From: Naegleria gruberi
Lineage: Eukaryota
Length of the DNA: 64,000 bases
Assembly (NCBI GenBank): GCA_000004985.1
Contig: GG738922.1
Direction: 5' to 3' (one strand)
A program made the translations under genes and the position numbers. Shown piece by piece: positions 5,986-20,885 of this stretch (its first letter is position 1; each line of letters opens with the position of its first letter). The notes under the pieces are model-generated. The model ran no database searches. It was not told the DNA's origin and worked only from the letters and a program-made list of their open reading frames with translations.

Positions 5986-8367
5986 TTATTTACTATTATT
6001 ATTTTGTTTAATTCGATGTCCACATAGAAATCCCAACCTAAAGCCCTCCACAACAAGATCCATATCCCTAGCTTCTCTTATTTGTGATTGAATATTTTGG
6101 AATAGATCAGCAAAATCCTTTTCAGTACTGCAGATATTTCTCAATATTGTCAAGTATTCTACGAGGGCTGGATTTGATCTCATTGTGGAACCATTATTTT
6201 GTTGTTGAGATTGTTGTTGTTGAACATTTTGATTGTTATCCATTATTGTTACAAAATTATTGTTTACAAATCCTAGTTGATTGTTATTTTCATTAACTCG
6301 CTGAAAATTATTGCCATTATTTGTTTGTAACATGGCTGATTGAATATTTCCAAAATTGATATTCATTGCATTATTAACCTGCAATTGGCTGTGATTAGAA
6401 ATTGAATTTGAATTGGTAGAGTATTCTGAATTTCTTCGTTGTTGTTGTACAAAGAGTGGTACTGTAGTTGCTGATTTTGGTGATGGTGGTGTCAAATTTT
6501 GATAATTGTTGGCAACTGGTGATACCTTTTGCGTATTATTATTTGTACCCAAAGGTTTATCCAAATTGGCAAGAAGTCTGGACAAGTAACTTGGATCGAA
6601 TAATTGAGAGCTACCTGGCGGGCTATTTGTCCTATTTTGATTATTCATTGGATTACCATTTGTAGCAGTATTCACTACTCCATTTGTCGTTATGCTCAGT
6701 GGTAGTGCAGAGCTGCATGTTGATGGTGGTGGTAATGATACATTGGAAGTATTTGGAATAGATGATGCAGATACTTGATTAGAAGCAGTAATACTGCTGG
6801 TTGTTGTGGTTGCTGCTGTTACAGATGGAATATTAGCAGTTGAGGTCGTTGTTGTTGTTGGATTTTCTTCCTTATCATCATTCTTCTTCTTCTTTGGTTT
6901 CCTCTTTGATTTGGTTAGTGAGCTGGAACTACCCAATGATCTTTTTAATGAAGGAAGATGAACGCCCTCTTGTTGTGCCTTCTTTTTCAAGTGGGTTCTA
7001 TACTTTTGCAAGTGGGATTTGATATGTGTGGTTGTGAGAAAGTCCACATTCATAATCTTTTTAATTTCCTTTGGTCTTGCATCGTAAACTCCCAAACTCT
7101 CAACCACTTGTACAAAGTGTTGATGTAATTCATCAGACCACATTAACCTGTCCTTAATTCTTCGTTTTCTTTTGGTGGTTGTTTCTTCTTGATTTCCACC
7201 ACCACTGTCACTTCTCCTTCTGCCCTTCTTCTTTTCTGATGGTTCATCTGCAGCATTAGCTTCGAGCTTTTCGTTACTCGAACATGTTGATGAGGACTCT
7301 GATGAACTATGAGAAGAAATAGGAGAAGAAGACCTCATGGTGTGTGGAATGTCGAATATGTCTGAAAAACTAAAGTGCTCCGACTGATTAAATCCTTGTT
7401 GCATGCCATTTCCATTGGCAGCAGCCATGTTCATCGAAGAAGCATTTGAATCCTTTCCCATGTGGTTCAAATCATTCTCTGTCATTATGTTTGCTTCAAA
7501 ATTGGTGTTTGTTTGGTGTTGTTGCATGTTCGGATTAATATTATTACCCACTACTACATGTTGCATATCGAAAGGCGAAGCTCCTTCGAGAAGAGATGGA
7601 TTATTCAGGAGTAGTCTTAGCATGGCTTCTGTATCATTATTTGCATTGTTGTGGAATGTCACTGAATTGGTGCTTGTTATTGTAGTGGCTGCAGTATTGT
7701 TGTTATTGTTATTAAAACTAAGAGATGGTGATGATGTATGATTGCCATTCACCATCTGTAAATGATTGTTAGAGTTTGATGCACCACTGTTGTTGTTAGT
7801 TGAAACAGTGTTATTATTAAACATGGATTGGAACAATGATGAGGCATGCTGGTGTTGTTGTTGCATCAATAGTGTCGAAGAGTTGGTATTCAAATTATTA
7901 TTATTGATAGTAGCAGAAGTAGAGGCACCTGATGATGATGATGCAACAGGCAGTGTTGAGGTATTGTTATTGTTATTATTATTATTTGATGGAGAAAGTT
8001 GAAGTAATTGCTGGATGGACAAGTCAACGACACGATTCGCATTAGATAATTCTAGAGAGGTAACAGGATTGCCAGGTTTAATAGATTGACTGCCTATCAT
8101 GGTGGGGTTTGCTCCTTCTGGAAAGCCTTGATTGTTAAGAGTTGCCGAAAAGTGTTGTTGTTGTTGTGGATGGTACAAGATATTGTTGGGTGATGGCATT
8201 GAGGAATGCTGCTGTTGATGTTGCATGGAAGATGCTGTTCTTTGCAAATATATGGATTGAAAGGAAGCTGGTTGTTGTTGCTGCTGTTGGGAAGTAGATG
8301 GAAGTTGGGTGGATAACAATGTTCTGTTATTAGTGTTATTATTCCTGGGAGAACCACTTCCACCCAT
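5986..8367 (-). CDS. Myb-like DNA-binding protein, SHAQKYF class, with long poly-N/Q/S low-complexity regions
   Basis: 793-aa ORF containing RLMWSDELHQHFVQVVESLGVYDARPKEIKKIMNVDFLTTTHIKSHLQKYR, a single SHAQKY-type Myb repeat, next to a basic KKKGRRRS stretch. Extensive N, Q, S and T homopolymers are typical of dictyostelid transcription factors. Further 5' exons are possible but were not found. Confidence 0.8.
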   Translation of the reverse strand: MGGSGSPRNNNTNNRTLLSTQLPSTSQQQQQQPASFQSIYLQRTASSMQHQQQHSSMPSPNNILYHPQQQQHFSATLNNQGFPEGANPTMIGSQSIKPGNPVTSLELSNANRVVDLSIQQLLQLSPSNNNNNNNNTSTLPVASSSSGASTSATINNNNLNTNSSTLLMQQQHQHASSLFQSMFNNNTVSTNNNSGASNSNNHLQMVNGNHTSSPSLSFNNNNNNTAATTITSTNSVTFHNNANNDTEAMLRLLLNNPSLLEGASPFDMQHVVVGNNINPNMQQHQTNTNFEANIMTENDLNHMGKDSNASSMNMAAANGNGMQQGFNQSEHFSFSDIFDIPHTMRSSSPISSHSSSESSSTCSSNEKLEANAADEPSEKKKGRRRSDSGGGNQEETTTKRKRRIKDRLMWSDELHQHFVQVVESLGVYDARPKEIKKIMNVDFLTTTHIKSHLQKYRTHLKKKAQQEGVHLPSLKRSLGSSSSLTKSKRKPKKKKNDDKEENPTTTTTSTANIPSVTAATTTTSSITASNQVSASSIPNTSNVSLPPPSTCSSALPLSITTNGVVNTATNGNPMNNQNRTNSPPGSSQLFDPSYLSRLLANLDKPLGTNNNTQKVSPVANNYQNLTPPSPKSATTVPLFVQQQRRNSEYSTNSNSISNHSQLQVNNAMNINFGNIQSAMLQTNNGNNFQRVNENNNQLGFVNNNFVTIMDNNQNVQQQQSQQQNNGSTMRSNPALVEYLTILRNICSTEKDFADLFQNIQSQIREARDMDLVVEGFRLGFLCGHRIKQNNNSK

Positions 8368-10240
8368 AATGCCAATAGAATTTGAATTGAATTGTTGTTG
8401 TTGTGGTGGTGTGGATTCATTGCTATATTATACTATTATATACAGCTTCAGAGTTTTGTATTTTTCAATGCGTAGTAGGGGACTAATGTTGTCTTTTTAA
8501 AATATCACACAATGATAGTTGTTTGTGAGGAAGTTATTGTTGAGGTGGAAAATCCTTGCCCGCACAATTTGGACACAATAAGGCTAGTTTTAATAAGGAG
8601 GTAAAAAACAGATTTGGCCTTTATGAAAGAACATCACGATCGTTGTGAATGTTGTTGAGGGTATCGCACCGATATGAGTATCATCGCAATAAGGAAGAAT
8701 ATTTTAATCTCTATGTTTACTGTTGTAAAACTTACTCTCAATAATATAAGTGGTGTGTGTGGTGATTTCGAAAGTGCGCAAAATTATTGTTGGTACCATA
8801 CACTATCAAATATTATGTTGTTGCCAAGATATATGTGAAGAAGAAAACTGCAGGTGGGTGTTGTGAGGTTTTTTTAGACTTTGAAAAGGATCTTGGAAAG
8901 CAACTAAACAAACAATTTTATCAAAGTCGTCAAGTTAAGGTTGCGAAGTTGTCGGTGAAATCTCTCTTATTTGTTTGTATGCGTAGCAACATTAAATATA
9001 TATGGAAAGTCTGGGTTCCTAAATTTATCCTTAGACCATGTGACCAGGCGCAATTATTTTTCCAATAATCGCGATGTAAAACATTTGTCTTGTAAAAATC
9101 TAATAAATTACCTACGAACTAAAACAGTTGTAATCCAATGCATTGCATCACCAAACATTGCAACTAGATCCATGTAAGGACAAATCATCCAAAGAGTTTG
9201 AATTTCGTATGGATCATGCAATATAGGAAGCAAACCTCGTTTTCAATACTGATTTGAGAATATCAGAGATACAATATATTAATTTATGAAAAACAGTGCA
9301 ATTTACGCTGCTGTTCGGTTCCCTGACTATGGTGCTTAATAAACAAGCAGAATAAAAAAAGTGTTTGCGAAATCCAACATTGCATTCATTCTGTTGCATT
9401 GATGCACCTCTTTTCTTTTATAACCGAGAGATAGCAGCCAAATATAATGATGATTCTTCATTCCGAGGTCATTTTGTAAAACGGTTAATGATGAAAATTT
9501 GTTGTGATCATCACAAGATATTTATCGATTAATTAATATTAATTGTCCTATTGGTGTGTTATGTAAATTTACCGAAGGATTATTGTATGATCCTTGCTAG
9601 AACACACACATGTAAAGGATTTATGCATATTATAATAGTGGGACAACTAATATTGTATTTGTGATCCGAAACAAAGACATCAACATCAATGATGCTGATG
9701 GTTGTATACTATCGGGTGTTGTTGTTGTATAAATTGATTAATAGTGGAGAATAACAATTTTAATCGAATGATGACGAAAGATTTGATGTTGGAAGAAGGA
9801 GGAGGTTGGAATCATCCATAAGGGTTTGATTGCCATTGTATTAAAAGACTCTTGAGAATTGATAATATCTATATTTCTATTTGCGGGTTGGATCCTACCA
9901 CTTTTGGTTTATTCCAGTTTCGAATAGTTAACGAACCGACTGGTAAAATATCCAATTGCTTTATATTAATTGGCATTTACACTTTCCGAGAATGTATTTT
10001 TCAATTAATTACAGAAAGAACGCCAAGTTAAACAACTACAGTTTTTGCAACACTTCCATTCTAATTGTACAATAATTCGAAATTACTGTAGTTGAATTGA
10101 GGAATTATTCAATAATGGAATTCAAACTAACGATTGCCAACATTACACTTTAGAATGAGATTTGGACTTGTTTACAATTTATTATTATTGCTTTCAGATT
10201 TAATGGTTTGGATAGGGAAGGACTATTTCGGATATGTGAA

Positions 10241-11410
10241 ATGAAACAATTAACTAGTCTTGATATTTATGGACATTTATTTGATTATTTTAAGGTTCGG
10301 TCGAGTGATGAGAAGGAGGATGATTCCTCAACAGCAATTAAACTTCCGAACCACAACAACAATAACATATTGAACCAATCGGAAGATGTGCATAGAATAC
10401 ATGATTCCGATGAAGATGAAGATGATGGGTATGGAGTTTATGATGATGAGGAAATTGATGAGGTGAAGGAAATTTGTAAAATTGATGAGAAAATCCTTAA
10501 AGATCCAATTCAATTTATGGAAATTTTGCAAGTGGTAAGGGATTCAGTGTTGGATTATTTTGCATTGCATGAATTGGTGGAATTGCAGTTGAGTTGTAAA
10601 TATTTTAATGAGATGGTGGATTTGTTTATTGTAACGAGAAGTGCAGTGTGGTGGTCTGCTTGTTGGAGGAGAACTTTCAATTACATGTATGGAGGCGAGG
10701 CAGTTAATAATCGAATAAGATTTGGGTCTATTCATTCCCATACTGAGAATACTTCAACATTCAATCATTTTTATGCCTCGTCATTATCAATTGAGGAGGA
10801 AATGAAACTATTTCCATTCGTGCTGGAAGGTAGTGAGGAGGAGGTTGCACTGGTGAAGGAGGAAGAAGAAAAAGCTGCAGCTCAACTCAAACTCAGGAGG
10901 TATAATCCAAGAGAGTTGCAAGGTAAATTTATTGGAAAGGAGACACAGCATGAAAGTTTCAAAATTACAAAGAGTAAGGTCACAAAATTAATGAGAAAGT
11001 CTGGACTGCTAACTCAATTCATTTCCATGAGTTATTCATCAACAGGAAAGAGTGGATCAGCAAATGGTAATTTTGATAAGCAATTTCTCACAAAGAAAGT
11101 GAAAAGGAATTACTTTGAGGAACAACAAAGATCGAAAGGTCAATCTAAACTTGTTAAGCTTGCCAATAGTTCACTAAGGTTTATTTTTTGGTCAATATTT
11201 AACAAATGGTGGTTGAAAAGCAAATCCAAGGAAGAAAAACTCATAGCACATACTTCAACCATTAATAGAAAAAGATTGGCTTCCTATGATCGTTATGGAC
11301 CTGTAAATAGAACTGAAACTGTTGAATTACTTTCATTAGTTCATCAAGTAGAAGGAAAACCAGATACTATCATTGGTACCTATGTAAAACATCACTCCTA
11401 TTATGCATAA
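10241..11410 (+). CDS. hypothetical acidic protein with an F-box-like segment
   Basis: ORF open from 10209 with the first ATG at 10241 (MKQLTSLD...). It contains DSVLDYFALHELVELQLSCKYFNEMV, which resembles the F-box core of neighbouring family members. A possible splice acceptor TTTCAG at 10195-10200 means an upstream exon cannot be excluded. Confidence 0.55.
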   Translation: MKQLTSLDIYGHLFDYFKVRSSDEKEDDSSTAIKLPNHNNNNILNQSEDVHRIHDSDEDEDDGYGVYDDEEIDEVKEICKIDEKILKDPIQFMEILQVVRDSVLDYFALHELVELQLSCKYFNEMVDLFIVTRSAVWWSACWRRTFNYMYGGEAVNNRIRFGSIHSHTENTSTFNHFYASSLSIEEEMKLFPFVLEGSEEEVALVKEEEEKAAAQLKLRRYNPRELQGKFIGKETQHESFKITKSKVTKLMRKSGLLTQFISMSYSSTGKSGSANGNFDKQFLTKKVKRNYFEEQQRSKGQSKLVKLANSSLRFIFWSIFNKWWLKSKSKEEKLIAHTSTINRKRLASYDRYGPVNRTETVELLSLVHQVEGKPDTIIGTYVKHHSYYA

Positions 11411-11449: not shown

Positions 11450-12214
11450 TTAATTCTTCTTCTTTCTGGTATTGGAAAGTGGATAGAGAGGTTCAGGATA
11501 TTTTGCCAGATAATTCTTGACATATTCATCCAATTCTCCAGCTTTTTTCATTTCCAATAATTCAACAAGAGTATCACCATGACAATGACATGATGCGTCC
11601 ACTTTACACCAACATCCCAAAACTTTTCCATCAAGCTCATCCAAATCTTTCAATAAATCATCTCTTCTCAAGATGTAATCTCTATATTTCTGACAAGCCA
11701 CTTCTGCACTTCCACCACAAGTAGATACAGGATATGGATTTCCCCACTTGGATTGTGGCAAACTCCAACCACCCTTATTCAAAGCTCTTCCAATATAAAC
11801 TTCACAATCCTGAACAACTTTACCATCCTTTCTTTGTAACTTGACTACACTAGTTGTTCTTTTCAAAGATAAAGGTGTTAGTGAGGATGATACTTTTGGA
11901 GTGCTTGTTGAAATTTCTCCCAAAGTTGTTGTTGTTATTGTTTGTAATGCTGGTTTCTGAGCAAAGAACTTGGATTTCTTCACTTGTTGTTGTTGAGTAG
12001 TCTTACCAGATGATGATGATGATTCCGATTCGGAGGTAGCAGTAGATTTAAATGGTCGCTTTTGATTTGCTGATTTTACATTATTTTGCTTCTGTTGTTG
12101 CTGAGAAGTTGTACTTGATGAAGAGGAAGTAGATGATGATGATGAACTTTGATTGGCAGAAGTAGTACCAGCAGCAGGAACCGAAAAGAAATTAAAGGAT
12201 CGTTGTTGAGACAT
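11450..12214 (-). CDS. protein with S/T/Q-rich N-terminus and C-terminal DUF4326-like domain (GNP ... CWC..CHCHGD motifs)
   Basis: 254-aa single ORF. The C-terminal ~110 aa read DCEVYIGRALNKGGWSLPQSKWGNPYPV...ACQKYRDYIL...GKVLGCWCKVDASCHCHGDTLVELL. This matches my recollection of the DUF4326 (Pfam PF14216) signature of an invariant GNP motif plus a CxC..CH.D cluster, a family known mostly from bacteria and phages. Family membership needs an HMM search to confirm. Confidence 0.7.
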   Translation of the reverse strand: MSQQRSFNFFSVPAAGTTSANQSSSSSSTSSSSSTTSQQQQKQNNVKSANQKRPFKSTATSESESSSSSGKTTQQQQVKKSKFFAQKPALQTITTTTLGEISTSTPKVSSSLTPLSLKRTTSVVKLQRKDGKVVQDCEVYIGRALNKGGWSLPQSKWGNPYPVSTCGGSAEVACQKYRDYILRRDDLLKDLDELDGKVLGCWCKVDASCHCHGDTLVELLEMKKAGELDEYVKNYLAKYPEPLYPLSNTRKKKN

Positions 12215-12450: not shown

Positions 12451-12941
12451 TTAATATTGTTGTTGAACAGTGGTAGTTTGAACTGTTTGTTGAACGTATG
12501 CTTGTGGAGGAACATACCCAACAATAGGTTGTTGAACAATGACTGGTTGTTGGACATAGACAGGTTGTTGGGCCATAACTGGTTGAGCAGTGGTGGTAAT
12601 GACAACTTGCTTTTGATTGTTATATTTGAGATTGCAACCATCAACCATACCAGGAATCAGAACTGTTTAAATATTAATAGTAAAATTATGAATATTGTTC
12701 ATATAACTATTGAATAGTATTAATTTACTTACTAAGATCGACCAATTGGCCAATACCGAACAAACCTCCAGTAACCAACCAGACAATACCCAAGATAAAG
12801 GAGTCCAAATAGAAACGATGCAATCCAAACAATCCAATACAACAACCTAACCAAAGAAGATACGCCTATATTCATCAAGTTATCCATACACCCCATCATC
12901 ATCATCATCATCATCATTGTATCAGTAAAACACAAGCACAA
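12451..12941 (-). CDS. two small adjacent ORFs: a poly-Met plus hydrophobic ORF and a P/Q/V-rich ORF (hypothetical; exon linkage unresolved)
   Basis: Upstream ORF 12732..12941 contains (ATG)8 followed by a W/L/Y-rich transmembrane segment. A GTAAGT at its end and a TTAAACAG acceptor precede ORF 12451..12648, which encodes repeated QQPV(Y/I)V motifs. The phases do not match (phase 2 versus phase 1), so I could not build a clean spliced model. Confidence 0.25.
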
Positions 12942-13435: not shown

Positions 13436-13921
13436 TTATGGATTGACAATGAAAATTTCACCCATTACTTCCTTCAATTCATTTACACGCGTTTCACCAA
13501 GTCTACTTCTTGAATACTCACACTGATTCACAATCTCTATTGTATCTTTTAATTGATCCAAATTGGCGTGTAACAAATAGGTAATACATGATTCAATCTT
13601 ATCTAATGAATAGGTGCTACTTGGTGAAGGTGTTTTACCCTTGAAAATCAAGCTCAATATGTCGTGAGCAATGTCTTTGATCTTTTTAGATCGATGAAGG
13701 ATAGAGCTTTGTCTCTGAGTTAATTGTTGTTTTGAAGATAGTGCAACGGAAGAGGATTGAGTACTTTGAATGAGAGAAGACAATTCAGAATACAATTCTC
13801 TTAAAGCAGCCAAACATGGATTATGAGAGTTTGGATTATTGTTTATAATTAGTGGTTCAACATATTCTCTGCTTCTTGAAAGAATGTTGGAATCAACAGA
13901 GTCTTGTTTAGTTTCTACCAT
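13436..13921 (-). CDS. hypothetical protein (161 aa)
   Basis: ATG-initiated ORF with moderately complex composition and no recognisable motif. Confidence 0.45.
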   Translation of the reverse strand: MVETKQDSVDSNILSRSREYVEPLIINNNPNSHNPCLAALRELYSELSSLIQSTQSSSVALSSKQQLTQRQSSILHRSKKIKDIAHDILSLIFKGKTPSPSSTYSLDKIESCITYLLHANLDQLKDTIEIVNQCEYSRSRLGETRVNELKEVMGEIFIVNP

Positions 13922-14100
13922 GTTTTTATTATTTATAACAGTGGTAATGGTAATTTTTTAAATGTGAATAGAACCATTATATATGAATGTAATAGTCAAT
14001 TTTCTAAAAATGGCAATCTTCCATTGTTGAACTTCCTTCTGTTAGAGATTAGCGGAAAGCAATACAATAGTACAAAACGGTAACTAGATTATGAATTGTT

Positions 14101-17100
14101 TTATTTCAATTCCACTTCAGCCTTTTTCTGTTTAAACGATAATACTCCAATGAAATAAGCATGATTAAGAGGCGCACATTTAAGTTCATTTCTCACAGCA
14201 GAACATCCTGGATAAATGTATAATTTTCCTTGATATTTGCTATTGTCTATCTTGACATAAAAGACTTTCTTCTTATCTGCCAATACACGAGCAGCCTTGT
14301 CAATTTTAGAGTTCAATGTATTGGCTCCAAAAGGATCAGTCTTGTTATATATATTGAATACAACTCCTTTCATTTCGAAATCCCAATCAGCCATACCTTT
14401 GATGACAAGGTTGCTATCAAATACACCTCTAAAAGATTTCTCTGTCAAACCCTCTATTGTAATATTTTCAAAATCGTATGATTTCCCATCAGATATGTGC
14501 ACTATTTCTGCGTAAGGTAAATGGTTTGAAGTGGAATCAGAAGAATCAGCAGAGAGAGGGGAATTTTGAGGAATTGGTTCGGTCTTTACAGTATTGTTCA
14601 CTGTGTGGCCTCCTAATCTTCTTTCACTTCTGTATGTTTCTGGGATGGTAGAATAGGATGCAGGAGAAGGGTTATCCAATCTAGGAGTGTATCTTCCGTC
14701 ATTATATCTACTATTGTTGCTTGAGCCTCTATAACTGTCAGTACGATCTGACCTACTGCTACTACCAGAATAACGAGAATAACTTCCACGATCATCATAC
14801 CCACCTCTTCCATATGAGCTATGATATGGAGACTTTGAGTCTCCATAATCTCTTGGTGAGGGTCTGTAGGAGCTGTGTGAAGTGTAAGGTGATCTGGAGT
14901 CTCTAGATTCTCTTGGTGAAGATCTATATGATGAAGATGGTGAAGGCTTTGAGGTTGCATAATTAGATTCACTTGGAGAACGAGGAGCTGTGTACGATGA
15001 TCCGCTATATCTGTTTGAGTTTCTATTCATTTCACTTGGAGAACGAGGGGCTGTATATGATTGCTTGGAAGATACATAGCTCGATGAAGATCTGTTTGAA
15101 GAATTATTGGATGAATTGAAATTGGACCCCATTTCACTTGGAGAAAGTGGTGCAACATAGACAGATGAGGAGGGTTTTTGTGTATTGTAACTGTTAAATC
15201 TAGTTGAACTTGTATGTGTATTACCACTACTGCTAAATCTAGTTGAGCTTGCATTCATTTCACTAGGGGAATGAGGAGCTGTATATGAAGATCCACTGTA
15301 TCTAGTGGTTGAATTGCTTGGAGTTGAATTGGTTATTTCANNNNNNNNNNNNNNNNNNNNNNNNNNNNNNNNNNNNNNNNNNNNNNNNNNNNNNNNNNNN
15401 NNNNNNNNNNNNNNNNNNNNNNNNNNNNNNNNNNNNNNNNNNNNNNNNNNNNNNNNNNNNNNNNNNNNNNNNNNNNNNNNNNNNNNNNNNNNNNNNNNNN
15501 NNNNNNNNNNNNNNNNNNNNNNNNNNNNNNNNNNNNNNNNNNNNNNNNNNNNNNNNNNNNNNNNNNNNNNNNNNNNNNNNNNNNNNNNNNNNNNNNNNNN
15601 NNNNNNNNNNNNNNNNNNNGTTTCAGCTGTTGGTCTATTTGAAGGAGAAACTGGTGGAACCTGAGTATTGCCAGTGTTACCATCACTACTAGAAATGTAT
15701 TCTGTGGAACTAACATTTTGATGTTTTTTCTTATTCTTAGGTTCTTCGAGAGGAACTTCAGATGGATCAATACCTTTTGAGGATAAGAATTTGTTTCTAT
15801 TCTCTAAATATCGTTGCTCCCTATCTTGTTGTGATTTCGTATGTTGCTGCATGAAGGCTGCAATTCCTCCTCCTCCGCCTCTTGATGTGGGAGTAGTTGT
15901 GGAGCTTGGTTTGGTTTCAGTTGTTTTGGTGGATACTGTGGGAGAAACAGTTGTAGCACTAGGTACAATATTTGGTGTTCTTTCCTCCTTGGTTGACTGT
16001 TTAGCTAAAAAACGTTGTTTATCCTCTTCGAACTTGTTCTCCTTATCTTCTTTTGCTTTGGTGTGTTGTTGCATGAAGGCTGCAATTCCTCCTCCTCCAC
16101 CTCTTGATGTGGGAGTAGTTGTGGAACTTGGTTTAGTTTCATTAAGGGGCGAAATATTCTTAAAGGCACGAAAATTGGAGCCCGATTCACTCGGAGAAAG
16201 TGGTGCAACATAGGTCGAGATTTTTTGTGTATTGTCACTGTTAAATCTAGTTGAAATTGCATTCATTTCACTTGGAGAGCGAGGAGCTGTATATGAAGAT
16301 CCACTGTATTTAGTGGCTGAATTGCTTGAAGTTGAACTGGTTGTTTCACTTGGAGAACGTGGTACAACATACGAAGATGATGAAGATTGTGCACTGTTAA
16401 ATATTTTTGAAGTTGTGTCTATTTGACTTGGAGGGGATACGTTCCTAAAATTGGCAGATGGAGTATTTTCTGATGGAGATCTTGGTGCTGTATATGAAGA
16501 TGAACTAGAGGGTACATTGATGGTATTAAATCTATTCTGAGTGAAACTGCTCGACGAATTGGTACCACTATTTGAAATTGGTGGATTAAATATTTCATTA
16601 TTTCTAATTGTGGTATGTGGAGATGATTTTCTGGCTTCACTTGGAGAAATTGGAGCTACAAAGGGAGTATTGGATCTAAAGCTAGTTGGCTTTGATCCCA
16701 TTTCAGTTGGGGAGCGTGGAGGGATGTATTGCTGATTATTAACAACTGGTCCTTGAGTATCTACAATATTATGGGCTGAGGCAACTGTTTTACCAACCTC
16801 ACTTGGAGAAATAGGAGCTGTAAATAAAGGGGTGGTGTGTGTTGGTGGATTAGTAATGGTGCCTTGGCTGAATTGTGTTAAATATCGGGGATCCCTTAAT
16901 CTAGGATCGCTAGGGAATGTATTTAATCTTGGGTCAACTGGTACAAATGTAGAACTTCCTGGTGGCAACTTGAACTGTGGTGAGGTGGTTTGAGTTATTG
17001 GATTAGTTACTAAGGAAGAGCCAATAGTGGTTGATGTATTAGAAACTCCATTGTTGACACCAGTAGTAAATGCGTTATTACCAAAGGAAGAATTGATTGT

Positions 17101-18066
17101 TGAAGAATTAGAAGGAGGCAAACTCATTGATGAATTGGTTGGAGTTGGGTTTGAGGTTGGAGGAATTTGTTGACCATTGATAGAGTTTGGTGGAATTTTA
17201 ACTGCTTCCACAGCATTTGATCTATTAAGCCTTGGAATACTGATTGTAGATAAGGGTCTTTGTTCTGCAGGTTGATCACTTTGTGTCTTTGCTGCTGTAA
17301 CAATGTTCCTCTTTGGAATTTTGAAAGGAGGCTGTTTCACACTACCAACCTCTGTTTGTGGCTTTTTCTTAACCTTAGAAAGAGGATTGGAATCTTCCTT
17401 TGGAATATTTACAAGATTAGGCTGCTGTGAAGAGCTACCAGTAGTTGTGTCTGTCTTTGTCAACTTGATCTTTTTTGAATCTTGATTTTCTTCTTCCGAA
17501 GTAGAGTCCTCATCATCCATTACAAGCTTTTTACGTTTCTTTACCTCTGAATTAGCCTTCTTCTTGGATTCTTTTACTTCCTTCTTTTTAGTTTCCTTCC
17601 TTGTTTCCTTTTGTTTTGCATTTTGTTTTTTCCTCTGTGGCTCCTTTTTAGATGATGAAGAAGAAGAAGCTTGTGGTTGATGATGTTGAGGAAATTTGGG
17701 ACTAACATTGTCTGTACTACTACTTCCGATATCGTCTGTGGATGACCTTTCGGGACTTGACAATGGAGAATCACTAGTTGTACTTTCCTGTTCCGATTTA
17801 ATTGAGTTGATGCAGGTTGCAATTTCAGACTGCCTTGCTTCAAACTCTTCCACAATAGTCATCACACCATTTAGTGTTACATTTTCATAGGATTCCCACG
17901 TACAATCATCGAATGGATAGTTGGCCCATTTGACGAGATAAAGTGGTTTACCTCTCTCGTAACGTTTTGCTAGAATAAATTCCGCATCATAGATGCATTC
18001 ATCTTCTTCTACCATTTTACACAAAATTCTGTGGTCAATTTTGATGTACGGAAGCCTATTTGTCAA
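14101..18066 (-). CDS. chromodomain protein with long S/T/P-rich repeat region (Y-x-APRSPSE motif repeats) and a C-terminal globular domain; CDS interrupted by an assembly gap
   Basis: The N-terminus YDAEFILAKRYERGKPLYLVKWANYPFDDCTWESYENV is a canonical chromodomain. The middle part is a basic KKE-rich stretch followed by at least 12 copies of SYTAPRSPSE / YVAPLSPSE-type motifs. A duplicated block KPSSTTTPTSRGGGGGIAAFMQQHTK sits near the 280-N gap at 15340-15619. The C-terminal ~140 aa (ADWDFEMKGVVFNIY...LYIYPGCSAVRNEL) form a non-repetitive domain I could not identify. Confidence 0.8.
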   Translation of the reverse strand: MTNRLPYIKIDHRILCKMVEEDECIYDAEFILAKRYERGKPLYLVKWANYPFDDCTWESYENVTLNGVMTIVEEFEARQSEIATCINSIKSEQESTTSDSPLSSPERSSTDDIGSSSTDNVSPKFPQHHQPQASSSSSSKKEPQRKKQNAKQKETRKETKKKEVKESKKKANSEVKKRKKLVMDDEDSTSEEENQDSKKIKLTKTDTTTGSSSQQPNLVNIPKEDSNPLSKVKKKPQTEVGSVKQPPFKIPKRNIVTAAKTQSDQPAEQRPLSTISIPRLNRSNAVEAVKIPPNSINGQQIPPTSNPTPTNSSMSLPPSNSSTINSSFGNNAFTTGVNNGVSNTSTTIGSSLVTNPITQTTSPQFKLPPGSSTFVPVDPRLNTFPSDPRLRDPRYLTQFSQGTITNPPTHTTPLFTAPISPSEVGKTVASAHNIVDTQGPVVNNQQYIPPRSPTEMGSKPTSFRSNTPFVAPISPSEARKSSPHTTIRNNEIFNPPISNSGTNSSSSFTQNRFNTINVPSSSSSYTAPRSPSENTPSANFRNVSPPSQIDTTSKIFNSAQSSSSSYVVPRSPSETTSSTSSNSATKYSGSSYTAPRSPSEMNAISTRFNSDNTQKISTYVAPLSPSESGSNFRAFKNISPLNETKPSSTTTPTSRGGGGGIAAFMQQHTKAKEDKENKFEEDKQRFLAKQSTKEERTPNIVPSATTVSPTVSTKTTETKPSSTTTPTSRGGGGGIAAFMQQHTKSQQDREQRYLENRNKFLSSKGIDPSEVPLEEPKNKKKHQNVSSTEYISSSDGNTGNTQVPPVSPSNRPTAEXXXXXXXXXXXXXXXXXXXXXXXXXXXXXXXXXXXXXXXXXXXXXXXXXXXXXXXXXXXXXXXXXXXXXXXXXXXXXXXXXXXXXXXXXXXXXXEITNSTPSNSTTRYSGSSYTAPHSPSEMNASSTRFSSSGNTHTSSTRFNSYNTQKPSSSVYVAPLSPSEMGSNFNSSNNSSNRSSSSYVSSKQSYTAPRSPSEMNRNSNRYSGSSYTAPRSPSESNYATSKPSPSSSYRSSPRESRDSRSPYTSHSSYRPSPRDYGDSKSPYHSSYGRGGYDDRGSYSRYSGSSSRSDRTDSYRGSSNNSRYNDGRYTPRLDNPSPASYSTIPETYRSERRLGGHTVNNTVKTEPIPQNSPLSADSSDSTSNHLPYAEIVHISDGKSYDFENITIEGLTEKSFRGVFDSNLVIKGMADWDFEMKGVVFNIYNKTDPFGANTLNSKIDKAARVLADKKKVFYVKIDNSKYQGKLYIYPGCSAVRNELKCAPLNHAYFIGVLSFKQKKAEVELK
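15340..15619. other. assembly gap (280 N) inside chromodomain gene repeat region
   Basis: Run of N. Confidence 0.95.
15843..16155. repeat. intragenic tandem duplication (~78-bp unit repeated ~235 bp apart) inside the chromodomain gene
   Basis: The stretch gttgctgcatgaaggctgcaattcctcctcctcc.cctcttgatgtgggagtagttgtgga.cttggttt occurs at about 15843-15920 and again at about 16078-16155. It encodes the duplicated peptide block and lies adjacent to the N gap, so the repeat array is probably collapsed in the assembly. Confidence 0.6.
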
Positions 18067-18305
18067 AGCCTAAAATTTTGGTGGTTTGAAGTGTGAAACG
18101 GTTATGAGGTGAGTTTGTTTTTTTTAAAATTTTCAAGCCTTTGAAAAACCGCGCCAAAGTCTCTATAAAGCCCATTACTTTGTTCAACACATAAAGCCAG
18201 GCTTTGAGAAAAATCGAAGGCTTTTATTATCAATGTCTAAATGATTTGATTGGTTTTTGAAATCAGTTTACAAGATAAAAGTTACCATTTTGAAACAAGT
18301 AACAT

Positions 18306-20885
18306 TTATCTCAATGTCATCATGTCATTGCTTAGGGTATGAGTTGTTTGATTTGAAAAGAATCGACCAAATTGCTTTGATCCAAACGAAGAAGATTGAC
18401 TGCCAGAGTGTAGAATGTCTGAAGCACTCGAAAAGATCTTCCAGAAACGTAATGTCTGATCACCAGCTGCTGAAACTACAGAGCTTCCATCTGGAGATTG
18501 AGCCAAATGCAATACTCTGCTTGTGTGACCAGTGAGCTCAGCAACCTTTCTCAAACTTGGATACTTCCATACAATCAATTGATTCTGAGAGAAACCATGA
18601 GAGGAAACAAGTTCCTTATCATACTTGGACCACAATAAACTACACACTTGAGATTTAGTATCCACAGAGTTCAAAAGAGCACCATTAGAAGTATTCCAAA
18701 AGTGAATCTTTCTATCGGCTGTACCACCTCCAGAGGCCAACAAATTGCTCTGCCATGGACACCAAGCAAGAGCCTTAACTGCTGCAGTATGTTCATTGAA
18801 TGTGAATAGAGCAGGCGAGAAGCTAGCACTACTAGCATCCCAAATATGAAGAGTATTGTCGTTACCACCTGAGGCCAATTGAGATCCATCTGGAGACCAC
18901 TTTAAGCCACAAACTTCCTGGTTGTGACCTGAATAGACAGAAACAACTTGACTTGGATATTGAGGAATGGTTTCATGTTGATGAAGGAACATGCCATGGC
19001 TATTAGAATGAATAGCACCTGGACCTATTCTTACATCGTGATTTAAAATCTTTCCATCTCTAGATCCAGATGAAAGAATAGATTGACAACGAGGATTCCA
19101 TGAAAGGGAACCAACTCTTGCCTGATGACCAATCATTCTTCTTACCATGGTCTTTCTCTCGACGTTCCAAATCTCAATAGTGCAATTGTTTGTTCCTACA
19201 GCAATGTGATGACCATCAATAGTCCAGGCAACACTGGTAACCGTATTATCTGTTTCTTCTTCCTCATTGTCATTCGTTTCCATGAGCTTGGTAATATTTC
19301 CATTGTTTGCATCCCACAAATAGACAGTATCAAAGAGGGATACTGCCAATAAATTTTGTGAGCTCCAATCCAATAAATTTAAATAAAAATCATCAACCAA
19401 TTTTGGTGCATCGAGTATTCTCTCTGGAATTGCAGAAATAGATCTGTGTCGTGAGTTGGAACTGCTTCCTCCTTGGAGCAGTTGTCTCTTTTCCATTTCT
19501 GTCATTTGAGAGAATTGCTTGTTGCAGGAAAATACTGCTTGGAGCTTGTTTTGAATATTGGTATCAGCACTGGTTGGTGTTTGGCTACTTCTCTTTGGAG
19601 AGAATGGTACATTCACAGCATTACCTCTTCTGATATTTTCCTGATTGTCAAATATGGAATCACTCACACAATCTGCCGAGTCAGCTCCCCTGGTGCTAAA
19701 ATCAAAGAAGAGATCCTGATCATCAGGATAGGATGTATGAATGTTGGAATTGGTTGGTTTGAATTTGAAAATCTTCTTTTCAGAAATCTTGGAATCCAAC
19801 AATCTACTTTCCAAACAAGACTCGAATTGATATGGCATATTCATTTGTGAGCTGGTGGATGAACCTTGCTGACCACTGCTTGGAGATCCTGGTGTATTGG
19901 CATTTCCATCATTAGATGTAAACATTAAATGTTTGGCAATTTCCATTTCAGATTGGGTGCATCTTTGAGGTATAAATCTGTCAGCATGTAGAGATGGGGA
20001 ATTTAGAATGACATCAAAGTTTCTTCTCTTCGAAGCAGGAGACATATTCCATCCAGCACTAATGTCTGTATTCTTCTTAGGTGAGGTCATATTGGTTGGT
20101 GTGAAGGTTTTTGGAGTTAGAATAGATTCTGATAAAATTGCAGATGGATCAAACACTTCACCACAACTACTCGAAAAATTATCTTGCAAATCGTTTGAAC
20201 AAGTGTTAACACTATTAGTTTCCCCAGCTAAACTTGAAAAATCCAATCGTTTCACAACTGATGGCTTACGATCACCAAAAGGTGCCACCACTTTCTTAGT
20301 TGTCTTATTGCAAGAGGTTAAACAATTTCTATCATTGACAAGCTGAGCACCAAGTTGAATCTTGAGCCCATTTCCAGGTTGAGGAATGTGTTGTTGAAGA
20401 GGAGCTTGCTTGAGTGGTGAGAGGGCAGAGTGAGGATGAATTCGTTTCTTATTATTTGGTGAGAGGGGATTATTTTGGAGGTGTAAATTTACATTATTAT
20501 TGTGCAGAGATAGCCCATTGCCTCTACCTTTCACTGGAACATTAGTTACTAAATGACTTGGAGCAGTTCTTGGACATGTTGGACTCTCTGGTTTGTTATG
20601 TCTTGGTGTTTGTACAAGGTTTTGAGCATTAGGTGGCATTGATTGACCACTAAAAGGAAGAGAAGAGAATTGATTATTATTATTGGATCTAGGTGAGGTA
20701 AACAGCAAGGAATCGGTCATGTTACTTGTAGAGGTTGGTAAAGAGATTTTCAACCCACTATTCAGTACCAATGAATGTCTTTTGCTATTATTATTATTAT
20801 TATTCTGCTTATGTGGGGAAAGATGATCCAACAAGCCTTTCGTTGGAGAGGATGGCAAGGGAGAAGTGAGCAGGAGATTGGACAT
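18306..20885 (-). CDS. Cdh1/Fizzy-related-like APC/C coactivator (Cdc20 family WD40 protein) with long N-terminal extension
   Basis: Contains the C-box DRFIPQR. The WD40 propeller has [29 protein letters not shown] ... [33 protein letters not shown]. The [14 protein letters not shown] signature is closer to Cdh1/Fzr than to Cdc20. The 859-aa single ORF is unusually long for this family. Confidence 0.85.

What the first reader, a model, noticed from the sequence alone, without database searches (positions are those of the whole stretch)
11450..12214. Eukaryotic gene encoding a DUF4326-like domain behind a serine/glutamine-rich tail
The C-terminal 110 residues (..WGNPYPV..GCWCKVDASCHCHGD..) match what I recall as the invariant GNP and Cys/His cluster of DUF4326, an uncharacterised domain found mainly in bacteria, phages and giant viruses and only sporadically in eukaryotes. 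Here it is fused to a long, typically dictyostelid low-complexity N-terminus, meaning a native, expressed-looking gene rather than contamination. The paired Cys/His residues suggest metal binding and possibly nucleotide or NAD-derived substrate chemistry. The function is unknown.
Basis: partly seen in the sequence, partly recalled or inferred. Interest (0 to 1): 0.55.

Follow-up and report, generated by a model that had tools for sequence, protein, structure and literature searches.

The report
Naegleria gene with DUF4326 domain
This is a real, conserved gene of a Naegleria-type amoeba, not a slime mould; it joins a floppy serine-rich front half to a DUF4326 domain, a known but never experimentally tested family that published computer analyses link to ADP-ribose and DNA-end processing.

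Summary
Its C-terminal half is a clear Pfam DUF4326 (PF14216) domain, with E=2.2e-19 and 70.3 bits against a cut-off of 25. The gene is native and functional. It has full-length orthologues in N. fowleri and N. lovaniensis in the same gene order, host-like codon usage, and domain dN/dS of about 0.06-0.09.

Two points in the finding are wrong or overstated. The organism is Naegleria (Heterolobosea), not a dictyostelid. The "paired" CHCH is only half conserved: the family motif is C201-x-C203...C211-H212, and C209/H210 are unique to this protein.

Close relatives are fused to ADP-ribosylglycohydrolase, NADAR, TIR, AlkB-like oxygenase, Prim-Pol and an exonuclease. This reproduces the published Aravind-lab context and fits their prediction of a rhodanese-phosphatase-type enzyme acting on ribose-linked phosphates.

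The most likely function is a Cys/His phosphoesterase acting on ADP-ribose-derived nucleotides or nucleic-acid ends. That function is inferred, not shown. This is a new member of a known, uncharacterised family, of modest interest.

The parts
11450..12214 (-). Complete single-exon coding sequence (254 codons plus TAA) of the DUF4326 protein
   Evidence: ORF list. The N. fowleri and N. lovaniensis orthologues are called as uninterrupted genes of 229 and 250 aa. The A-rich context before the ATG can be read directly.
11864..12214 (-). N-terminal Ser/Thr/Gln-rich, predicted disordered region (residues 1-117)
   Evidence: Composition is S 27%, T 15%, Q 13%. AlphaFold2 pLDDT is about 50 with no secondary structure. 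It evolves fast, with dN/dS 0.28-0.73 against 0.06-0.09 for the domain.
12188..12214 (-). Conserved N-terminal short motif MSQQRSFNF (residues 1-9)
   Evidence: It is shared by the three other Naegleria-type orthologues as MS[QS][QS]R[STQ]FNF, although the rest of the tail has diverged. Its function is unknown.
11963..11977 (-). Second short conserved motif in the tail, KSKFF (residues 80-84)
   Evidence: The equivalents are TSKFF in Willaertia, TSKYF in the metagenome orthologue, and TSQFK / TPQFK in N. fowleri / N. lovaniensis. Its function is unknown.
11564..11836 (-). Pfam DUF4326 (PF14216) match, residues 127-217
   Evidence: E=2.2e-19, 70.3 bits, cut-off 25. The AF2 domain model has pLDDT 90.7 and pTM 0.84. 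Foldseek against viral DUF4326 models gives E down to 2.5e-11.
11786..11800 (-). VYIGR motif (residues 139-143) on the first core strand; R143 is nearly invariant
   Evidence: Alignments A1-A3. DSSP places a strand at 139-141.
11732..11752 (-). SKWGNPY motif (residues 155-161); W157 and P160 invariant, S155, K156 and N159 at least 90% conserved
   Evidence: Alignments A2 and A3.
11573..11614 (-). Cys/His cluster C201-W-C203-KVDASCH-C211-H212-G-D214, at the end of strand 198-201 and the start of helix 212-225; the presumed active or metal site
   Evidence: C201, C203, C211 and G213 are invariant and H212 is at least 90% conserved. 332 of 346 surveyed domains keep C-x-C-(n)-C-H, with n=4 in 211 and n=7 in 87, this one included. 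C209 and H210 are not conserved.
11453..11563 (-). C-terminal extension beyond the Pfam domain (residues 218-254): a helix at 228-238, then YPEPLYP and a basic RKKK end
   Evidence: AF2 helix at 228-238. YPEPLYP is conserved in the Naegleria orthologues and absent in Willaertia. RKKK is at residues 250-253.

Best explanation
A native, single-exon, vertically inherited gene of a Naegleria-type amoeba. It encodes a two-part protein: a fast-evolving disordered Ser/Thr/Gln-rich N-terminal half of about 117 aa, with two short conserved motifs and basic patches, and a compact, strongly constrained DUF4326 domain (residues about 120-240).

Shown here: the domain assignment, the orthology, the purifying selection, the disorder, and the conserved residues R143, W157-x-N159-P160, C201-x-C203 and C211-H212-G-D.

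Inferred: the domain is an enzyme of the rhodanese-phosphatase type, as proposed by Burroughs, Iyer and Aravind. A cysteine at the end of the central strand (C203 or C201), together with the loop and the CH at the start of the following helix, attacks a phosphate attached to a ribose. The substrate would be ADP-ribose-derived nucleotides (for example ADP-ribose phosphates, or phosphoribose remnants left after ADP-ribose removal) or nucleic-acid ends.

In Naegleria the domain stands alone. The disordered tail probably provides localisation or partner binding; this is speculative.

Confidence that it is a genuine Naegleria DUF4326 gene is about 0.95. Confidence in the phosphoesterase mechanism is about 0.35. 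The overall figure below refers to the mechanism.
For: Identity and nativeness:
- Pfam hit.
- Full-length orthologues in N. fowleri and N. lovaniensis, and a homologue in Willaertia.
- The order DUF4326 - chromodomain gene - CDC20-like gene is conserved with both Naegleria genomes.
- Neighbours are ordinary eukaryotic genes.
- GC and codon usage match the neighbours, RSCU r=0.91.
- Domain dN/dS is 0.056-0.093.

Enzyme-like conservation:
- A few polar, Cys and His residues are invariant across 40-50 diverse sequences.
- C-x-C...C-H is kept in 332 of 346 domains.

ADP-ribose and nucleic-acid context among relatives with 50% or more domain identity:
- Fusions to ADP_ribosyl_GH (2), NADAR, AlkB-like 2OG-Fe(II) oxygenase and DSPc phosphatase.
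- Prokaryotic fusions to TIR, Prim-Pol, RNase_T exonuclease and DUF5131.

Published predictions:
- PMC7824862 reports the same fusions.
- bioRxiv 10.1101/2025.06.06.658234 reports fusions of DUF4326 to homologues of a predicted phosphoribohydrolase in amoeba viruses.

Fold:
- A strand-loop-helix carries the Cys/His cluster.
Against: - A profile search of PDB sequences finds nothing, and hhalign against E. coli RapZ gives 0.1% probability.
- The loop between C-x-C and C-H varies from 4 to 16 residues, and there is no Arg at the CX5R position. That is unlike the rigid P-loop of classical cysteine phosphatases.
- Three invariant Cys plus one His is also the signature of a zinc site.
- The 80 prokaryotic loci showed no conserved operon partner.
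- No member of the family has been tested biochemically, as far as the searched literature shows.
- The key paper (Burroughs & Aravind 2023, NAR Genom Bioinform lqad029) could not be read.
Confidence: 0.35

Rival explanations
1. The Cys3-His cluster (C201, C203, C211, H212) is a structural or catalytic zinc site. On this reading the domain is a small metal-dependent nucleotide- or nucleic-acid-binding module, possibly a hydrolase with chemistry other than Cys-phosphate transfer, rather than a metal-independent cysteine phosphatase. This is essentially the first reader's 'metal binding' idea.
For: All four residues are near-invariant, which is more than a single nucleophile would need. The loop between the two halves tolerates 4-16 residues, as zinc knuckles do and P-loops do not. 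There is no Arg at the CX5R position. No significant structural match to phosphatases was found.
Against: C211 and H212 are adjacent, which is awkward for both to bind one metal. The other conserved polar residues (R143, K156, N159) and the enzyme-rich fusion partners suggest a substrate pocket. The published analysis assigns a cysteine-based active site. The geometry could not be measured because model coordinates are not exposed.
Confidence: 0.25
2. The domain is a NADAR-like N-glycosidase or ADP-ribose hydrolase that removes ADP-ribose from bases or proteins, rather than a phosphoesterase.
Confidence: 0.1
3. The gene is a decaying or passenger relic of a giant-virus or bacterial insertion with no host function, or it is assembly contamination.
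For: The best viral structural matches are giant viruses of amoebae: Solumvirus, Pandoravirus, Marseillevirus, Pithovirus and Mimivirus, at 40-50% identity. DUF4326 is listed among genes exchanged between Acanthamoeba and medusavirus (PMC6450098). The family is mainly prokaryotic and viral.
Against: Synteny holds across three Naegleria genomes, and a homologue exists in Willaertia. The ORF is intact and domain dN/dS is below 0.1. Codon usage matches the host. The flanking genes are ordinary eukaryotic genes. Any transfer was therefore ancient, and the gene is maintained by selection.
Confidence: 0.04

Closest known systems
Pfam DUF4326 (PF14216); orthologues FDP41_007767 (Naegleria fowleri) and C9374_007078 (N. 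lovaniensis), named 'DUF4326 domain-containing protein' in UniRef
   Same: They share the same two-part layout (polar disordered N-terminus plus DUF4326 plus a YPEPLYP tail), 79-82% identity in the domain, the same chromosomal neighbours, and the same conserved motifs.
   Different: The tail is only loosely alignable. This protein carries an extra, non-conserved Cys-His (C209/H210) in the variable loop. The exact sequence is not on record in the protein collection searched.
DUF4326 domains of giant viruses of amoebae and of jumbo phages (e.g. Solumvirus A0A3G5AGA3, Pandoravirus, Marseillevirus, Xanthomonas phage XacN1)
   Same: They share the fold (Foldseek E 2.5e-11 to 1e-5, TM 0.5-0.75, 40-50% identity for the giant-virus ones) and the same motifs.
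   Different: The viral versions are often fused to other domains. The partners reported are SLOG, Macro, NADAR, alpha-L-fucosidase or PTP domains. The Naegleria protein has no second globular domain, only a disordered tail.
Rhodanese-phosphatase superfamily, RapZ-C / DUF488 / DUF4326 clade (Burroughs & Aravind 2023, NAR Genom Bioinform 5:lqad029; clade name recalled from the abstract, paper not readable here)
   Different: There is no Arg in the loop. The loop length is variable, X8 in this protein. Two further invariant Cys are present. The fold is much smaller. No statistically significant sequence or structure match was obtained here.
NADAR / YbiA domain (PF08719)
   Different: There is no sequence-family match and the conserved residues differ. 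The fusion of the two domains implies distinct roles.

Membership tests
Pfam DUF4326 (PF14216) | Score above the curated gathering threshold over most of the profile | tested here: met
   70.3 bits against a cut-off of 25, E=2.2e-19, profile positions 1-81 of 82.
Pfam DUF4326 (PF14216) | Family motifs YIGR, W-x-N-P and G-C-x-C...C-H-G-[DE] | tested here: met
   All are present (residues 140-143, 157-160, 200-214) and sit in conserved alignment columns.
Pfam DUF4326 (PF14216) | Same predicted fold as other members | tested here: met
   27 viral proteins match at Foldseek E<=1e-3, and all but two of those that carry a name are named DUF4326; the best is E 2.5e-11 with TM 0.65-0.79. The model has pLDDT 90.7.
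Rhodanese-phosphatase superfamily (RapZ-C/DUF488/DUF4326 clade) | Rossmann-like alpha/beta fold superposable on rhodanese, PTP or RapZ-C | tested here: inconclusive
Rhodanese-phosphatase superfamily (RapZ-C/DUF488/DUF4326 clade) | Active-site Cys at the end of the central strand, followed by a fixed phosphate-cradling loop (CX5R-like) and a helix | tested here: inconclusive
   The strand at 198-201 ends in C201-W-C203, and helix 212-225 starts at H212. However, the loop is 7 residues here and 4-16 across the family, with no Arg.
Rhodanese-phosphatase superfamily (RapZ-C/DUF488/DUF4326 clade) | Detectable profile similarity to a clade member | tested here: not met
   hhalign of A2 against E. 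coli RapZ gives 0.1% probability, and the profile finds no PDB sequence. This is a weak test, because RapZ was a single sequence and no DUF488 profile was available.
Rhodanese-phosphatase superfamily (RapZ-C/DUF488/DUF4326 clade) | Cysteine-dependent phosphate or thio transfer activity | not testable with these tools
   This needs enzymology. No biochemical report was found.
NADAR (PF08719) | Pfam match above threshold | tested here: not met
Zinc-binding Cys3-His module | Four conserved ligands in two pairs | tested here: met
   C201, C203, C211 and H212 are conserved in 332 of 346 domains. This is a sequence pattern only.
Zinc-binding Cys3-His module | Ligand geometry compatible with one metal ion, and metal present | not testable with these tools
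This needs a structure or metal analysis.
Known anti-phage defence systems (PADLOC) | Match to a defence-protein model | tested here: not met
   Only a meaningless hit to the low-complexity tail was found, E=0.98.

The most novel reading that the evidence does not exclude
Heterolobosean amoebae long ago domesticated a domain otherwise used by phages and giant viruses to manipulate ADP-ribose-based signalling or DNA modification. They attached it to a lineage-specific disordered tail with conserved short motifs (MSxxRxFNF, SK[FY]F), and it now works as a host-side component of an ADP-ribose or nucleic-acid-end immune or repair pathway. It might, for example, erase phosphoribosyl marks left on DNA/RNA by viral or endogenous ADP-ribosyltransferases. 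If so, it would be the first cellular eukaryotic role for this family and a tractable entry point in Naegleria.
Probability: 0.12. Interest if true: 0.6.

Novelty: new member of a known kind. Interest (0 to 1): 0.3.

Why it matters
DUF4326 is a large family. A full HMMER scan of 1.84 billion representative proteins found at least 4,971 cluster representatives. The family spans bacteria, archaea, phages, giant viruses and amoeboid eukaryotes, and it has a published in-silico hypothesis but no experiment and no solved structure.

A strongly constrained stand-alone copy in Naegleria shows the domain has a cellular function of its own in a eukaryote, not only a role in virus-host conflict. It is a small, well-folding candidate of about 120 aa for structure determination and for phosphatase or ADP-ribose assays.

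This particular gene adds little that the annotated N. fowleri and N. lovaniensis orthologues do not already show.

Tried and rejected
- Exact-sequence look-ups of this protein and two neighbouring ORFs found nothing on record, so the species within Naegleria could not be named.
- NCBIfam, PADLOC and PDB sequence searches gave no meaningful hit.
- hhalign against E. coli RapZ found no similarity.
- A neighbourhood survey of 80 prokaryotic loci found no widely conserved partner. The best was DUF5131 (Gp37/Gp68) next to or fused with DUF4326 in 6-7 Bryobacterales/Terriglobia loci. Many 'clusters' in high-GC genomes were spurious ORFs.
- tblastn against phage genomes found only one hit, XacN1.
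- The key paper by Burroughs & Aravind 2023 is not held, whether requested by DOI or by PMC id. A search for 'PF14216' found no papers.
- I considered whether the tail motifs are PCNA-binding PIP or APIM boxes. By inspection they do not fit the consensus (no hydrophobic residue at position 4, Q not conserved), so I make no claim.
- Contamination and recent horizontal transfer are rejected on synteny, codon usage and selection.
- There is no second copy in the window.

Full report
**Observation.** The window carries an ATG-to-TAA ORF of 254 codons at 11450..12214 on the minus strand, exactly as reported. The quoted peptides are there: WGNPYPV at residues 157-163 and GCWCKVDASCHCHGD at 200-214. 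hmmscan against Pfam-A gives PF14216 (DUF4326) at E=2.2e-19 and 70.3 bits (gathering cut-off 25), covering residues 127-217 and profile positions 1-81 of 82. PHROGs gives phrog_464 (unknown function) at E=3.6e-25. NCBIfam, PADLOC and PDB sequences give nothing meaningful.

**Organism.** The evidence points to Naegleria (Heterolobosea) instead.
- The best full-length relatives are hypothetical proteins of Naegleria fowleri and N. lovaniensis (54% and 52% overall; 82% and 79% in the domain). Next come a metagenome protein (71%), Willaertia magna (61%) and Balamuthia (54%).
- tblastx of the window against the N. fowleri and N. lovaniensis loci shows the same order in both: DUF4326 gene, chromodomain gene, CDC20/Fizzy-like WD40 gene. 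The CDC20-like gene is locally inverted.
- Pfam confirms Chromo, CDC20 WD40, Myb and LRR proteins as neighbours.
- Window GC is 34%.
- The exact protein and two neighbouring ORFs are not on record, so the species could not be named.

**Native and functional.**
- GC (0.367), GC3 (0.23) and relative codon usage (r=0.91 against six neighbouring ORFs) match the surroundings.
- Nei-Gojobori estimates give domain dN/dS of 0.056 (N. fowleri against N. lovaniensis) and 0.086-0.093 (window against either). The tail gives 0.28-0.73. dS is saturated above 1.2, so these are rough, but pN is far below pS in the domain.
- The orthologues are called as single-exon genes.
- There is no second copy in the window.
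- Contamination or a recent viral insert is therefore rejected.

**Anatomy.**
- AlphaFold2 on the domain (residues 118-254, 40-sequence alignment) gives pLDDT 90.7 and pTM 0.84.
- The full-length model has pLDDT about 50 and no secondary structure for residues 1-117, and a confident domain at 120-240.
- The tail is 27% Ser, 15% Thr and 13% Gln.
- Within the otherwise unalignable tail, the Naegleria-type orthologues keep MS[QS][QS]R[STQ]FNF at the very N-terminus and an SK[FY]F-like motif (residues 80-84 here; also in Willaertia). The C-terminus keeps YPEPLYP.
- In the domain, the conserved residues are C137, Y140-I-G-R143, S155-K-W157-x-N159-P160, L194-x-G196-K-x-L-G-C201-W-C203 and C211-H212-G213.
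- Of 346 DUF4326 domains collected here, 332 keep C-x-C-(n)-C-H. The spacer n is 4 in 211, 7 in 87 (this protein included), and up to 16 in the rest.

**Family size and spread.**
- A full HMMER scan of 1.84 billion representatives finds 4,971 proteins at E<=1e-3 and 824 at E<=1e-10.
- The word-indexed profile search finds more than 6,600 at E<=1e-10.
- Prokaryotic carriers are very diverse: Bryobacterales, actinomycetes, Chloroflexota, Planctomycetota, CPR and archaea.
- Viral structural matches are led by giant viruses of amoebae, followed by phages and haloviruses.
- Eukaryotic homologues occur in Willaertia and Balamuthia, and in transcriptomes of Lapot, Thecamoeba and Dracoamoeba.
- The medusavirus paper already lists a DUF4326 gene among amoeba-virus transfers (PMC6450098).

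**Context and mechanism.**
- Close relatives (about 50% or more domain identity) are fused to ADP-ribosylglycohydrolase (twice), NADAR, an AlkB-like 2OG-Fe(II) oxygenase, alpha-L-fucosidase (twice) and a DSP phosphatase. One is a tandem DUF4326.
- Prokaryotic versions are fused to TIR, inserted in a Prim-Pol domain, or joined to an RNase_T exonuclease, DUF5131 or an HTH.
[quoted passage not shown] - A 2025 preprint notes fusions of DUF4326 to homologues of a predicted phosphoribohydrolase in amoeba viruses.
- The dedicated 2023 paper exists, as shown by its citation, but could not be read.

**Could I confirm the superfamily assignment?** Only weakly.
- Foldseek against the PDB finds nothing significant.
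- A profile search of PDB sequences and hhalign against E. coli RapZ are negative.
- The local layout does resemble the rhodanese/PTP active site: a strand ending in C-x-C, a loop, then a helix starting at C-H. In 61% of members the spacing is C-X5-H.
- However, the variable loop, the missing Arg and three invariant Cys plus a His fit a zinc site equally well.

I therefore commit to the published phosphoesterase model as most likely (about 0.35). The rivals are a zinc-dependent or zinc-stabilised module (about 0.25), a NADAR-like glycosidase (about 0.1), and a functionless relic (below 0.05). No conserved operon partner emerged from the 80 prokaryotic loci.

**Verdict.** The feature is real, and the domain call is right. 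The taxon is wrong, and the Cys/His pattern was partly over-read. The gene is an orthologue of genes already labelled 'DUF4326 domain-containing protein' in two sequenced Naegleria species. The family's occurrence in amoebae and their viruses, and a mechanistic hypothesis for it, are already in the literature. It is a new member of a known but experimentally uncharacterised kind. Interest is modest (0.3) and rests mainly on the family's lack of any experimental or structural characterisation.

Noticed in passing
window 13448-20885: The chromodomain gene (ORF 14101-18066 minus, with homology extending down to about 13448) and a CDC20/Fizzy-like WD40 gene (18306-20885 minus) are syntenic with N. 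fowleri and N. lovaniensis. The CDC20-like gene is inverted in place relative to both species.
   Followed up: partly
window 10208-11410 (+): A 400-aa ORF with no Pfam hit ends 40 bp from the DUF4326 stop codon, tail to tail. It has no counterpart at the equivalent position in N. fowleri or N. lovaniensis, where an AMP-binding enzyme gene lies instead. Synteny breaks on this side.
   Followed up: partly
window 12451-12850 (-): Short ORFs with Gln/Val/Pro-rich repeats (QQPVYVQQPVIVQQP...) and a hydrophobic segment are separated by an AT-rich stretch that looks like an intron. This is probably a small multi-exon membrane-protein gene between the DUF4326 and chromodomain genes. It has no Pfam hit.
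   Followed up: no
L017 (Streptomyces sp. NPDC045470, NZ_JBEZAN010000002.1), match at 6001-6300: A DUF4326 domain appears to be inserted inside a bifunctional Prim-Pol domain. Pfam matches Prim-Pol in two stretches on either side of DUF4326. This is an unusual nested architecture linking the domain to DNA priming.
   Followed up: partly
L056 (Verrucomicrobiae MAG, CAWIPH010000002.1), match at 6001-6306: One 603-aa protein combines an N-terminal TIR domain, a Tll0287-like domain, a membrane segment and a C-terminal DUF4326. That pairs a likely NAD-cleaving domain with DUF4326 in a single bacterial polypeptide.
   Followed up: partly
L008 (contig JAQTUL010000013.1, labelled Candidatus Colwellbacteria MAG), match at 6001-6309: The DUF4326 protein here has long acidic/lysine-rich low-complexity tails and the long eukaryote/giant-virus-type loop (CKKKGNEQCHGD). 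The contig may be viral or eukaryotic DNA mis-binned into a CPR genome.
   Followed up: no
L018, L019, L020, L023, L026, L027, L038 (Bryobacterales/Terriglobia): DUF5131 (phage Gp37/Gp68 family) lies immediately upstream of DUF4326, or is fused to it. This was the only recurrent neighbour found among the 80 prokaryotic loci.
   Followed up: partly
P0086, P0185 (metagenome proteins) and Marseillevirus LCMAC103 A0A481YVP5: DUF4326 is repeatedly fused to an alpha-L-fucosidase (GH29) domain. This partner was not mentioned in the passages I read on ADP-ribose systems and is not obviously explained by the ADP-ribose hypothesis.
   Followed up: no
P0040 (ENA metagenome protein, 305 aa): This protein carries two tandem DUF4326 domains. 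It was the strongest profile hit (E=5e-92).
   Followed up: no
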